64,000 nt of DNA from Octopus sinensis (taxonomy: Eukaryota), in assembly GCF_006345805.1 (NCBI RefSeq), contig NC_043023.1, positions 12,772,001 to 12,836,000 of the forward strand, in the 5' to 3' direction. Both the position numbers and the translations under genes were made by a program. Positions 12,820 to 45,166 of this stretch are shown here, piece after piece; within the stretch, counting starts at the first letter, position 1, and each line of letters starts with the position of its first letter. Under the pieces are notes generated by a model. The model searched no databases, had not been told where the DNA came from, and worked only from the letters and a program-made list of their open reading frames with translations.

Positions 12820-13788
12820 ATGAATAATTCAACTAAAGCAAAAATCTCTGATAAAAGAGAGAAGCCATATCACTGTGATATCTGTGGTAAGTCATTCTCT
12901 AAAAGTGGCAACTTAACTAGTCACAAACGTGTTCATACAGGAGAGAAACCATATCAGTGTGATATCTGTGGTAAATCATTTTCTCGAAGTGCTGACTTAC
13001 CTAAACACAAATGTACTCATACAGGAGAGAAACCATATCAGTGTGATATCTGTGGTAAATCATTTACTAGAAATAGTACTTTGACTAGTCATATACGTAT
13101 TCATACTGGGGAAAAACCATATCAGTGTGATATCTGTGGCAAATCCTTTTCTGAGCCTTCTTCTTTAAAAGGGCACAAACGTATTCATACAGGTGAGCAG
13201 CCATATCATTGCGATATCTGTGGTGTATCATTCTCTGAAAATAGCCATTTAACCAGACACCTACGTATTCATACTGGGGAAAAACCATATCAATGTGATA
13301 TCTGTGGTAAGTCATTTTCTGGTAATAGCAATTTAATCAGTCACAGACGTATTCATACTGGGGAAAAACCATATCAATGTGATATCTGTGGTGCATCATT
13401 CTCTGAAAATAGCCCTTTAACCAGACACCTACGTATTCATACAGGAGAGAAGACATATTGTTGTAATATCTGTGGTAAATCATTTTCTCAGCCCTCTACT
13501 TTAAAAGGGCACAAACGTATTCATACGGGTGAGAAGCCATATCGGTGTGATATCTGTGGTAAATCATTTTCTCAGCCCTCTACTTTAAAAGGGCACAAAC
13601 GTATTCATACAGGTGAGAAGCCATATCAATGTGATATCTGTGGTGAATCATTCTCTTACAGTAGTGACTTACCTAAACATAAACGTATTCATATTGGGGA
13701 AAAACCATATCATTGTGATATTTGTGGTGAGTCATTCTCTCAAAAACGCCACTTAAGTACACATATGAGTATTCATACACAGGTGTAA
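12820..13788 (+). CDS. C2H2 zinc-finger protein B, 322 aa, 11 fingers, intact
   Basis: Uninterrupted CxxC-x12-HxxxH repeats with TGEKPY linkers; ends with the family terminal finger STHMSIHTQV*. Confidence 0.92.
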   Translation: MNNSTKAKISDKREKPYHCDICGKSFSKSGNLTSHKRVHTGEKPYQCDICGKSFSRSADLPKHKCTHTGEKPYQCDICGKSFTRNSTLTSHIRIHTGEKPYQCDICGKSFSEPSSLKGHKRIHTGEQPYHCDICGVSFSENSHLTRHLRIHTGEKPYQCDICGKSFSGNSNLISHRRIHTGEKPYQCDICGASFSENSPLTRHLRIHTGEKTYCCNICGKSFSQPSTLKGHKRIHTGEKPYRCDICGKSFSQPSTLKGHKRIHTGEKPYQCDICGESFSYSSDLPKHKRIHIGEKPYHCDICGESFSQKRHLSTHMSIHTQV

Positions 13789-13815
13789 TCGTATCAATAT
13801 CAAAATTTATTACAA

Positions 13816-14312
13816 CCCGGCAGGACAAGTGAGACCATAACCCATGGCCTCTACATAGAATGTAGCCAGTCCACTTATGCATACCTTTCCTTCTTGGGAC
13901 ACAAAACTCTACTTGTGAATACCTGTTGAGGAAGGGAGAATCAGAATCAAAATCGAAATAAATCAACATTAATGGAAATTGTAGCTGTGATACCAGTGCT
14001 GGTGGCACGTAAAAAGCAACATTAGAACGTGGCCGTTGCCAGCACCGTCCCAACTGGCTTCCGGGCCGGTGGCACGTAAGAAGCACCAACCGATCGTGGC
14101 CGCTGCCAGCCTCTCCTGGCCCTTGTGCCCGTGGCACGTAAAAAGCATCCACTACATTCACAGAGTGGTTGGCGTTTAGGAAGGGCATCCAGCTGTAGAA
14201 ACACTTCAGATCAGACTGCAACCTGGTGCAGCCTCCTGGCTTCCCAGACCCCAGTCAACCGTCCAACCCATGCTAGCAGGGAAAACAGATGTTATACAAT
14301 GATGATGAGGAG
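13816..14312 (+). mobile_element. RTE 3' tail downstream of ZNF B
   Basis: Same junction as 7120; ends aatgatgatgagg. Confidence 0.85.
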
Positions 14313-14420
14313 GATTCTCTATTGTTTCCTGTGACAGACAGCTGTTCTTTTGTGTACTGGACATTTTCAATGTTTTGTTATTAAACATTTTGTAAAAATA
14401 AAATTCTTTGTGCATGCTTA

Positions 14421-40900: not shown

Positions 40901-41058
40901 CAATGATTGGACAGGAGAGAAAATGACGTCAGAAACGGATCGGAAGTGCAACGGCCTGACGTCACATCAGGAAGATATAAGTCAAAGATGCCTTCTTTCT
41001 TTCGGTGTCTGCGACGGGGTCCAGTTCGTGCGCTGGAAACGGTCGTAGATTAGAATAT
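40901..41058 (+). promoter_or_regulatory. Putative promoter and exon 1 of ZNF F
   Basis: Same motif set as 17387-17544. Confidence 0.65.
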
Positions 41059-43697
41059 GTGAGTGTATATATTCTATATTACCTTGAAGGTAAAATCGTT
41101 GACAGAATGGGACAAAGAAGACACCGGAACGAAACGAACCAGTCATAGAAAATTGAAGAACTATAACCATATAAAGGGATATAACTTTCCTTAATTAATT
41201 AATTAAGGTGCTTAATTAACGATCACTGACTCGTTGTTTGTATCTGAATACGGTAAGTTGACAAAGATTTATTTTAAGGCTGTAATGATGATGATAATAC
41301 CAATAATAATAAGGTAGTACTAGCGAACAAAGCTTGCTATCGTAAGTAGTCGATCCTACAATTTTTAAAACGAAGTAAATAAATAATTTTTATAAACAAA
41401 CTAAAGTTAAGGTTAAAAAGTCGTAGGATCGACTACATACGACTAGCTAGCACGGATGCCCGAGTGCGCGCACCTGGACCACTGTTCGCTAGTAGTACCG
41501 TGCACCTCTCCAAGATAATGACGCTTACTTGTGAGAAAAAGTTAGGAAATGGGAAATATATCCAGAATACATAAAGTATGGAGGAAATTAGAAAGATTAA
41601 TCTATTTTTTAAATATTTTATACTAAAAAATAAAATACGGAGAACGGGCACTCGCGAATATAAACAAACATATAAGGGTACTATTTAAGAAGAGAGGTCG
41701 CGGTGGGCGCGCTAGCTAGTCGTGACTAGTCGATCCTTACTTTGTATTTTTGTTTTAAAAAAATTATTTTCTTTGTTTGAAAAAATGAGCGTAACTTCGG
41801 TATAGGTACCGGAAGTACCAGATACATTTCAAGAAAGTGTCTTTTTTTTATATATATTGGGGGGGGGTATGGTTAAGGGTTGTGTTAGGGGTGGGAGAAA
41901 AGGGTTTCTGTTATCTTCAGAAATGTAAACAAAGCCACTCACGGTACCTATACCGAAGGATCGCCAAAAAATTATTTATTTTGTGTTTATTTACTTTGCT
42001 AGGCAGTCGTTGTAGGATCGACTAGTCACGACTAACTAGCGCGAGTGCGCGCACCGGGACCACTCTTTTTAAATAGTACCGGAGGAAATTAGAACGATTA
42101 ATGTATTTTTTTAAACTATTTTATACTAAAAAATAAAATACGCAGAACGGGCACTCGCGAATATAAACAAACATGTATGTACGTATACGTATGTATTTAT
42201 GCATATATATGTATTATTATGTATACATATATGTGTGTGTGTAAAGGTGAAAGAAATTGAATATTAATTAATAACATCAAATTCGTATGGATTTTGGCGT
42301 TTGGTTCAGCAAATTATGTTTTTGATATACTCTACCGATGATTCGAAAATGATTTGTAAGTAAAATTACACAATCTATTAACGATGAAACAATTGTATAG
42401 AGTTAATCCATTTTTTCGTTATTTTTCATTTGTCCTGCCCGCTTACATTCTTGGCGTGTTGAATTAATGCTTGAGAACATTTCTTTAGTGGTGGATTCCC
42501 TTTGCGGATCTATTTCTAGCGTTAGAGTGACCACATGTGGTCCCTCTCTTAATACTTGTATGTATATATATATATATATGTGTGTGTGTGTGAATACAAA
42601 TATATTTGTAGTGAATCTTGCACGCAAGAAGTAGATTGGATCCACCAGAGCCAAAATTTTAATTAACCTTTCACCAAAATTTTTCCCATGGCAGAACAAT
42701 AGAGAAATCTGTATACAGAATGTTGTAAAAGTTTCAATGCCTCAATGGATTCTGACCCCTGCAAACATAGACATTAAATGGATGACAGTGTTGATGTTGT
42801 AAGATTTGCAATGTTGAATTACTATGTCGTTTAATGATTCTCTTTATCTCACTTGCTTTTTTTTCTATTTCAGAATATAACATCCTGTTGATATGAAAGA
42901 AATTACTTCATTCAGATGTGCCTCTGATATTTTATCAGCTCCCATCAACCAAAGGAAGATGATATATTTATAAGGAGCATTCATCAATACATCAAACTCA
43001 TCTTATAAAGGAAATCTGTGAAAAACAACAGCAAAATATTTCTTCTGGACGATGGAATTAACAGCAACAATTTGAAGTCTTTGCTGTCTGGAATATAGAG
43101 ATGATTGTTTTACAGGTTAATTAAGCTTGGATAACTTTACAAAGGGGTAGACGATTGTCACCTCTTGATTTAGATATTAAGGAAGATCACAGATGAAAGA
43201 AGCATAGCATTAAATTATTCTCTGAAAATAGCAACACAAATATATTCATAGAAATGAATTTTTTTCCTATTTCAGAATATCATACCATGTTGATTTAAAA
43301 GAAATTTCTTCATTCGGGATGTGTGTCTGATATTTTTATTGACTTTCATCAATTAAAGGAAGACCATATATTCATAAGGCACATTCATCAAAACATCAGC
43401 TTCTTTATATAAATAAAATCTTCGACGAACGATGGGGAAATATTTCTTCTGGATGATGGAATTAAGAGCAACATTTTTTTTGCCATCTGGAATGTAGAGA
43501 TGATGATGAACCTACGGGTTAAGTTTGAGTAACTTTACGAAAGAGTTAACCAATTTATATCTTCTGTTTTAGATATTAAGCAAGATCACCAATGAAAGTA
43601 ACATTTAATTATTCTCTGATGCATTTGAACACAAACATTCATAGAAATGAAACAGATACTATCATTGTGATATGTATAACGAAATTATTATCTCATA

Positions 43698-45166
43698 ATG
43701 AATAATTCAACTAAAGCAAAAATCAATGATAAAAGAAAGAAGCCATATCACTTTGATATCTGTGGTAAGTCATTCTCTCAAAGTTGTAATCTAAGAAGGC
43801 ACAGACGTGTTCATACTGGAGAAAAACCATATCAGTGTGATATCTCTGGTAAATCATTTTCTGACAATAGCAATTTAACTCATCACAAATTTGTTCATAC
43901 TGGGGAAAAGCCGCATCAGAGTGATATCTGTGGTAAATCATTTTCTCAAAATAGCACTTTAACTCATCACAAATTTATTCATACTGGGGAAAAGCCGCAT
44001 CATTGTGATATCTGTGGTAAATCATTTTCTCAGCCTTCTTCTTTAAAAGAGCACAAATGTATTCATACAGGGGAGAAGCCATACCATTGCGATATCTGTG
44101 GTAAATCATTCTCTCACAGTAGTCACTTGCCTAAACATAAACGTATTCATACAGGGAAAAACCATATCAATGTGATATCTGTGGTGAATCATTCTCTGAA
44201 ATTGGCACTTTAACCGGACACCTATGTACTCATACAGGAGAGAAACCATATCAGTGTGATATCTGTGGTAAATCATTCTCTACCAATAGTGACTTAAATA
44301 AAACAAACGTACTCATACAGGAGGAGAAAAACCATTGTGATATCTGTGGTAAATCATTTTCTGACAATAGCACTTTAACTCATCACAAATTTATTCATAC
44401 TGGGGAAAAGCCGCATCAGTGTGATATCTGTGGTAAATCATTTTCTCGAAGTGCTGACTTACCTAAACACAAACGTACTCATACAGGAGAGAAACCATAT
44501 CAGTGTGATATCTGTGGTAAATCATTTTCTGAAAATAGCAATTTAACTCATCACAAATTTATTCATACAGGAGAGAAGCCATACCATTGTGATATCTGTG
44601 GTAAATCATTCACTACAAATAGTTCTTTGACTAGTTATATACGTATTCATACTGGGGAAAAACCATATCAGTGTGATATCTGTGGTAAATCATTCTCTAC
44701 CAGTGGTGACTTAAATAAACACAAACGTACACATACAAGAGAAAAGCCCCATCATTGTAATGTCTGTGGTAAATCATTTTCTAGAAGTAACAGTTTAACT
44801 GATCACAAACGTATTCATACAGGAGAGAAGCCATACCATTGTGATATCTGTGGTAAATCACTTTCCCATAATTCTACTTTAAACAAGCACAAACGTATCC
44901 ATTCAGGTGAGAAGCCATATCATTGCGATATCTGTGGTAAGTCATTTTCTGGTAATAGCAATTTAATCAGTCACAAACGTATTCATTCAGGTTAAAAACC
45001 ATATCATTGTGATATCTGTGGTAAATCATTCTCTCACAGTAGTGACTTGCCTAAACATAAACGTATTCATACTGGGGAAAAACCATATCATTGTGATATT
45101 TGTGGTATGTCATTCTCTCAAAAACGCCAATTAAGTACACATCTGAGTATTCATACACAGGTGTAA
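43698..45166 (+). pseudogene. C2H2 ZNF locus F: 171-aa first ORF, Cys losses, frameshifts and a TAA in a linker
   Basis: YHFDIC, CDISG and QSDIC break fingers 1-3; frameshifts at about 44155 and 44300; terminal finger ends IHTQV* at 45166. Confidence 0.8.

What the first reader, a model, noticed from the sequence alone, without database searches (positions are those of the whole stretch)
12820..45166. Paralogous ZNF genes reuse one library of finger cassettes in different orders
Seen: flanks, leader and terminal finger are nearly identical between loci, but the finger order is not collinear. RSADLPK is finger 2 in B, 8 in C and 3 in D. YSSDLPK is B10, D9, E11. GNSNLIS is B6, D4. RSNILxD is C10, E4. 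RRADL is C9, D14, E5. Blocks move together: [21 protein letters not shown] is B3-5 and E7-9; TSGxLNK-RSxSLTD-HNSTLNK is D5-7 and late F; DxSSLTH-QISHLT is D12-13 and E2-3. A roughly 50-bp near-invariant linker (catacaggagagaaaccatatcagtgtgatatctgtggtaaatcatt) separates the variable helices. Established: PRDM9-type ZF minisatellites diversify by unequal exchange, and octopus has large clustered C2H2 expansions. Inference: the cluster works as a recombination-driven generator of new DNA-binding specificities, with pseudogenes as possible cassette donors.
Basis: partly seen in the sequence, partly recalled or inferred. Interest (0 to 1): 0.85.

Follow-up and report, generated by a model that had tools for sequence, protein, structure and literature searches.

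The report
Scrambled zinc-finger cassettes in octopus cluster
Eight neighbouring, recently copied zinc-finger genes, likely from an octopus, carry the same set of DNA-reading modules in scrambled orders, likely because germline recombination swaps pieces within and between the copies, which would keep producing new DNA-binding proteins.

Summary
The window holds eight tandem C2H2 zinc-finger loci (A-H), likely octopus, with 5' flanks about 3% apart. Their 84-bp fingers come from one older pool of 21-30 types: 65 of 83 fingers in B-F have their nearest relative in another gene. Order is scrambled: 11 of 24 internal type pairs are reversed, as in shuffles. Backward jumps are 15 of 34, against 21 of 371 under a deletions-only null. 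Array ends stay anchored, and 5' flanks ignore the two 3' flank classes, which points to exchange between paralogs. DNA-contact codons change faster than silent sites (pN/pS 1.8; zinc-ligand and core sites 0.16), but equally in broken copies. Best reading: germline unequal crossover and conversion, filtered by selection. This resembles PRDM9 arrays and mouse KRAB-ZFP clusters, but it is neither. I found no cephalopod report of it in nine searches. The order was not checked on raw reads.

The parts
3164..7093 (+). Locus A, pseudogene: leader at 3164, finger 1 split by an insertion, 18-unit array 5618-7093 with stops and frameshifts
3218..5617 (-). Repeat insertion in finger 1 of A: SINE-like part (label inferred) plus a reverse-transcriptase LINE fragment; same insertion in G
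   Evidence: (RVT_1, E 1e-31)
11960..12790 (+). Two roughly 410-bp tandem copies (84% column identity) upstream of B with splice-acceptor and donor-like sites; likely 5'UTR exons (inferred); the proximal 720 nt is shared by all eight loci
12820..13788 (+). Locus B: intact 322-aa ORF, 11 C2H2 fingers, no accessory domain in the ORF
20535..21890 (+). Locus C: 16 units, ORF 406 aa with 14 fingers (stop ends 21755), cut in unit 16 and joined to mid-spacer sequence
25804..27860 (+). Locus D: 24 units, ORF 408 aa with 14 fingers (stop ends 27030), 10 further units out of the ORF
34264..35568 (+). Locus E: 15 units, ORF 423 aa with 14 fingers, 1-nt frameshift in the terminal finger
43698..45166 (+). 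Locus F: 17 units, likely pseudogene (Cys lost in fingers 1-3, frameshift in 5; 2 intact fingers in the ORF)
48438..52012 (+). Locus G: pseudogene, recent copy or allele of A with the same insertion; 13-unit array 50939-52012
58002..59661 (+). Locus H: first finger like E1, 3' end like D; indel-rich (12 of 18 internal units off length), probably low-quality consensus
45252..55639 (+). Segmental copy of window 1-10823 (93-98% identity by block)

Best explanation
This is a young tandem cluster of C2H2 zinc-finger genes, likely octopus, whose 84-bp finger arrays are mosaics of one older pool of finger types, likely reordered by germline unequal crossover and gene conversion within and between the copies. 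Shown: a shared pool, scrambled interiors, anchored first and last fingers, short blocks of one to three fingers moving together, and excess amino-acid change at contact positions. Inferred: mispairing in the 84-bp register between sister, allelic or paralogous arrays gives duplication, deletion and fusion of blocks; breakpoints fall anywhere in the unit and sometimes make hybrid helices; selection then keeps the zinc scaffold and likely favours new contact residues. Untested: expression and targets; transposons or neural genes are the likely targets by analogy with the literature.
For: Pool older than the genes: types differ by about 19.5 of 84 nt, 5' flanks by about 3%. A copying model explains B-F as 69 tracts from other loci (median 83 nt, 3.9% mismatch, 11 tracts of two or more fingers). 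Backward jumps 15 of 34, against 21 of 371 over 25 deletions-only simulations. Same protein-level rule: 14 of 57 crossings in the window, 15 of 4360 in 109 pairs of fetched zinc-finger proteins. Between-gene exchange: the 3' classes ADGH and BEF have 15 fixed differences in 443 3' columns but 0 in 728 5' columns; the second-last finger follows the 3' class, and first-finger subtype against 3' class shows all four combinations. First-finger types occur inside arrays (A10, H6). Linkage between sites in the unit decays with distance (rho -0.16, P=0.0005), and 4 units fit two parents much better than one. A and G differ by 0.56% over the shared LINE part yet have 18 and 13 units with different middles. 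pN/pS: contact 1.83, ligand and core 0.16 over 61 recent edges; 2.37 and 0.05 in open frames; only 6 of 83 contact changes are CpG.
Against: A PHI-like homoplasy test was not significant (P 0.25-0.57). The contact-site excess is as high in broken frames (2.54), and pN/pS is unreliable under conversion (Baker 2017), so ongoing positive selection is not shown. The four-combination test needs noisy locus H. The 3' classes were defined from the 3' flank itself, so that test's P value is inflated. Matched fingers are not closer than the 5' flanks at silent sites (pS 0.05-0.07 against about 0.03), so most matches could be inherited rather than recently transferred. The strictest protein rule left only 1 crossing in 13, and the control set is mostly orthologs and isoforms, not young paralogs. 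One assembly only; the order was not checked on reads.
Confidence: 0.7

Rival explanations
1. Shuffling happens only within each locus: a long ancestral array that already held repeated blocks was duplicated, and each copy then gained and lost blocks by allelic or sister exchange, with no transfer between paralogs.
For: Matched fingers are as diverged as the flanks or more. A supersequence of 37-46 units can hold all five arrays (pruned search, an upper bound). PHI-like test not significant.
Against: 5' flanks show no trace of the two 3' classes (0 of 728 against 15 of 443; 0 of 741 against 18 of 443 without G and H). Spacers are mosaics too. G's 5' flank is 2.9% from A's although their shared LINE part differs by 0.56%.
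Confidence: 0.15
2. The different orders are assembly artefacts from collapsed or mixed long reads.
For: G and H are indel-rich (6 and 12 off-length units), and A/G may be two haplotypes placed in tandem. No read check was obtained.
Against: B, C and E have no off-length internal unit. Only one cross-gene pair among 83 units is identical, so units are not copies of one another. Ligand and core sites show pN/pS 0.05 in open frames. The same frameshift sits in the same finger of A, D, G and H.
Confidence: 0.07
3. A programmed cassette system, with pseudogenes as donors and somatic reshuffling (for example in neurons), as in antigen-receptor gene conversion.
For: At least three of eight loci are dead and keep near-intact fingers. 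F2 shares a lost cysteine with D23, hinting at exchange among dead segments.
Against: No single expression site: four loci have open 11-14-finger frames. Switches are not confined to one site. Rearrangements carry inherited substitutions and shared frameshifts, as germline events do.
Confidence: 0.04
4. Similar helices arose independently by point mutation under selection, with no movement of units.
For: Contact positions are highly variable and reuse few residues.
Against: Matches extend to silent linker positions, which track the upstream helix (2.1 against 4.5 differences in 21 nt), and to tracts of 145-267 nt with 1-4% mismatch.
Confidence: 0.02

Closest known systems
Mouse KRAB-ZFP clusters (Kauzlaric 2017, PMC5363842, section 7 and passages read; Bruno 2025, PMC12575710, passages read)
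   Same: Young tandem clusters with pseudogenes; paralogs differ by duplication, deletion and insertion of finger-coding segments ('drift and shift'); most fingerprint arrays are strain-specific.
   Different: No KRAB domain in ORF B; invertebrate. Here interior order is near random between genes only 3% apart. The passages read stress segmental duplication and repeats within genes, not a cluster-wide pool.
PRDM9 zinc-finger minisatellite (Baker 2017, PMC5519329, section 10 part 1 and passages read)
   Same: 84-bp units turned over by conversion and duplication, with diversity concentrated at DNA-contact residues.
   Different: No KRAB, SSXRD or SET domain. Diversity share at contact sites is 0.35-0.41 against 0.687 human and 0.910 mouse. 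Old types persist (82-85% nt identity outside contacts), and the pool spans eight genes.
Cephalopod C2H2 expansions (Albertin 2022, PMC9068888, passages; Holzinger 2025, PMC12513265, abstract, outline and passages; Wells 2023, PMC10547256, passages)
   Same: Clustered, lineage-specific C2H2 duplicates. The three nearest finger sets among 273 fetched proteins are Octopus.
   Different: These papers treat genes as units. Holzinger's main text has 0 hits for recombination, conversion or shuffl, and Albertin invokes conversion for protocadherins. Supplements were not seen.
TALE repeat arrays and restorer-of-fertility-like PPR clusters (recalled; not tested here)
   Same: Modular one-repeat-one-code nucleic-acid binders diversified by exchange among paralogs.
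   Different: Unrelated folds and kingdoms; a functional analogy only.

Membership tests
Tandem C2H2 (Kruppel-type) zinc-finger genes | Cx2Cx12Hx3H repeats with conserved linkers, Pfam zf-C2H2 | tested here: met
   PF00096, 11 stretches in B, E 5e-76
Tandem C2H2 (Kruppel-type) zinc-finger genes | Expressed and binding DNA | not testable with these tools
   No expression or binding data obtained; purifying selection on ligand sites is indirect support
PRDM9 | KRAB, SSXRD and PR/SET domains before the array | tested here: not met
   None among the 25 best of 42 Pfam hits shown for B; only an 18-aa leader precedes finger 1 and the frame closes 6 codons upstream; distant spliced exons not excluded
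PRDM9 | Homogenised array with very high share of diversity at contact residues | tested here: not met
   0.35-0.41, above the 0.29 median of 122 fetched proteins but below human 0.687 and mouse 0.910; some PRDM9 orthologs are near 0.41
PRDM9 | Finger turnover by conversion and unequal exchange | tested here: met
   (inferred from one assembly)
KRAB-ZFP | N-terminal KRAB domain | tested here: not met
KRAB-ZFP | Clustered young paralogs with excess change at -1, 2, 3, 6 | tested here: met
KRAB-ZFP | Binding and repression of transposons | not testable with these tools
   no binding predictor or ChIP data available
Octopus C2H2 expansion | Fingers closest to Octopus proteins | tested here: met
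   ranks 1-3 of 273 are Octopus proteins; no exact or near-identical record found, so the species and subfamily are unassigned
Programmed cassette conversion (antigen-receptor or antigenic-variation type; recalled) | One expression site, one-way transfer from silent donors, somatic | tested here: inconclusive
   four open frames; direction and tissue not testable in one assembly

The most novel reading that the evidence does not exclude
Octopus C2H2 clusters act as a cluster-wide finger gene pool: live and dead paralogs trade cassettes so fast that individuals carry private finger orders, a PRDM9-speed diversifier spread over many transcription factors, likely aimed at transposons. A somatic, neuronal version is not excluded but has no support here (about 0.03).
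Probability: 0.25. Interest if true: 0.8.

Novelty: new variant of a known kind. Interest (0 to 1): 0.52.

Why it matters
Cephalopods have very large C2H2 repertoires (2785 genes in one squid), and how these diversify is open. If fingers move between paralogs, the finger or short block is the unit of evolution, not the gene. Whole-gene trees, orthology calls and short-read expression counts for these genes would then mislead, and new binding specificities would arise in single steps. The cluster gives a small, directly testable case: spanning long reads from a few animals would measure the shuffling rate and show whether pseudogenes donate.

Tried and rejected
No whole genome is held, so other clusters could not be compared. 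Three protein searches were crowded by long vertebrate zinc-finger proteins and gave no close relative; the best full-length identities were about 60-66%. Exact look-up of the B, C, D and E proteins found 0 of 4. No read-level check of finger order was obtained, which leaves the artefact question resting on internal evidence. The first copying-model run had a bug (gaps in the cut unit C16 acted as wildcards) and was replaced. The PHI-like test was not significant. A borrowed-versus-new allele test was inconclusive: 70 of 81 contact differences have both alleles in distant types, but only 10 of 81 with 7-nt context. The excess identity of the RSADLPK unit (2 private changes against 7.6 expected, P=0.019) could be purifying selection. 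H was left out of the order and selection counts as too noisy; A and G were left out of the B-F counts. No upstream accessory domain was found. Four look-ups of earlier findings gave nothing that bears on this. The 2015 octopus genome paper is not held and is not relied on.
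Full report
Anatomy. Six-frame scanning and unit cutting show eight C2H2 loci on the + strand, A to H, with 18, 11, 16, 24, 15, 17, 13 and 19 units of 84 bp. Each follows the same leader and 5' flank. B is intact (322 aa, 11 fingers); C, D and E have open frames of 14 fingers; F is broken early; A and G carry the same repeat and LINE insertion in finger 1; H is indel-rich. 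Window 1-10823 recurs at 45252-55639, and the spacers are patchworks of shared blocks. The three fetched proteins whose fingers are nearest to the window's, of 273, are from Octopus, so octopus is likely; the species was not determined.

The observation. Of 83 units in B-F, 65 are nearest to a unit in another gene, 12 to one in the same gene, and 6 tie; average distance is the same within and between arrays, 19.6 and 19.4 of 84 nt. Proximal 5' flanks are 2.5-4.7% apart, so the 21-30 finger types are much older than the genes. Interior order is close to random: 11 of 24 single-copy type pairs are reversed against about half in shuffles, while neighbours are partly kept, 7 shared adjacencies against 3.2. 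Among unambiguous near-identical units 11 of 31 comparisons cross, 8 of them between D and E. With one protein-level rule, 14 of 57 comparisons cross in the window and 15 of 4360 in fetched zinc-finger proteins; a stricter rule left too few window pairs, 1 of 13 against 12 of 3053, and these controls are mostly orthologs.

Deletion from one ancestor does not explain it. A copying model describes B-F as 69 tracts taken from other loci, median 83 nt, 3.9% mismatch. Among tracts of 60 nt or more, 15 of 34 returns to the same donor go backwards; 25 simulations of a single-copy ancestor with deletions only gave 21 of 371. An ancestor with repeated blocks cannot be excluded (a pruned search found supersequences of 37-46 units), but making such repeats itself needs unequal exchange.

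Where exchange happens. Its first half is type-specific and travels with the upstream helix; only the last 23 nt are near-invariant. The 64 inferred switches spread over the hairpin (19.1), recognition helix (11.3), His-His stretch (15.6) and linker (18.0); nine are confined to the helix (ten listed, one a wrap-around artefact). Four units fit two parents by at least 4 differences better than one, for example E10 and C13. Linkage decays with distance inside the unit (P=0.0005), but a PHI-like test was not significant.

Within or between genes. The 3' flanks form two classes, ADGH and BEF, and the second-last finger follows them. The 5' flanks do not: 0 fixed differences in 728 columns against 15 in 443, and 0 in 741 against 18 in 443 without G and H (the classes were defined on the 3' side, so the P value is inflated). 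First-finger subtype and 3' class occur in all four combinations, though one needs noisy H, and first-finger types sit inside A and H. I infer crossovers or conversions between paralogs in or near the arrays. Against recent transfer of most fingers, matched units are no closer than flanks at silent sites.

Speed and selection. A and G differ by 10 of 1801 nt in the LINE part and 8 of 495 in the last six fingers, yet have 18 and 13 units with different middles. Whether they are paralogs or haplotypes, reordering goes on in dead copies, so it is at least partly passive. Over 61 recent edges pN/pS is 1.83 at positions -1, 2, 3, 6, 0.16 at ligand and core sites and 0.37 in the backbone; in open frames 2.37 and 0.05; in broken frames 2.54 and 0.53. 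CpG decay explains 6 of 83 contact changes. The scaffold is clearly conserved. The contact excess fits diversifying selection, but it could be old diversity carried in by conversion, a problem Baker 2017 states for such arrays. The outcome is 64 distinct fingerprints in 83 fingers, and no adjacent pair of 78 shared between genes.

Artefact. The order was not checked on reads. Internal evidence is against an artefact for B-F: B, C and E have no off-length internal unit, only one cross-gene pair of units is identical, and selection is structured. G and H are noisy and could include errors.

Comparison. It works like a PRDM9 minisatellite spread over several genes, and like mouse KRAB-ZFP clusters, where duplication, deletion and insertion of finger segments among paralogs is described and most fingerprint arrays are strain-specific. 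It is a member of neither: no KRAB or SET domain appears in ORF B, and the contact-site share of diversity is 0.35-0.41 against 0.687 and 0.910 for human and mouse PRDM9. Nine literature searches listed no paper on finger shuffling in cephalopods, and the 2025 survey of cephalopod C2H2 genes has no hit for recombination, conversion or shuffl in its main text. The library lacks most subscription papers and I saw no supplements. Also seen in passages only: bioRxiv 10.64898/2026.09.07.749791 and PMC5291267; neither changed the reading. Wells 2023 predicts transposon binding by octopus zinc-finger proteins, and Holzinger 2025 reports nervous-tissue expression; neither was tested for these loci.

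Verdict. A real and unusually clear case of finger reordering in a young invertebrate cluster, by a known class of mechanism. New variant of a known kind; interest 0.52.

Noticed in passing
window 11960-12790 (and upstream of the other loci): Two roughly 410-bp tandem copies, 84% alike, each with splice-acceptor and donor-like sites and short open frames of 59-62 codons; possibly 5'UTR exons or a decayed coding exon.
   Followed up: partly
window 12788-12873: The 18-aa leader lies in an 86-nt stretch that looks by eye like a decayed, frameshifted finger unit, so the start codon may have arisen inside an old finger.
   Followed up: no
window 1-10823 and 45252-55639: A 10-kb segment occurs twice; divergence is uneven (0.56% LINE part, 1.8% upstream, 2.9% proximal 5' flank), suggesting conversion of the 5' flank or a haplotype duplication by the assembler.
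   Followed up: partly
window 5783-6284: In dead locus A a two-finger dimer, one unit with a stop at position -1 in two of the copies, is repeated three times; G has it once.
   Followed up: partly
window 21890-21910: C is cut inside unit 16 and joins sequence matching the middle of the A-B spacer, a deletion that removed its 3' end.
   Followed up: partly
window 62965-63850: A 140-bp tandem pair, a degenerate finger on the minus strand near 63016-63084 and a LINE-like ORF at 63383-63850.
   Followed up: no
window 13790-14300 and other 3' flanks: A SINE-like repeat with 60-63-bp internal tandem units sits just after each stop and varies in unit number among loci.
   Followed up: no
fetched proteins P0025/P0163 and P0256/P0266: Two squamate protein pairs also show crossed finger order (4 of 10 and 6 of 21), so similar shuffling may occur in reptile clusters.
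   Followed up: no
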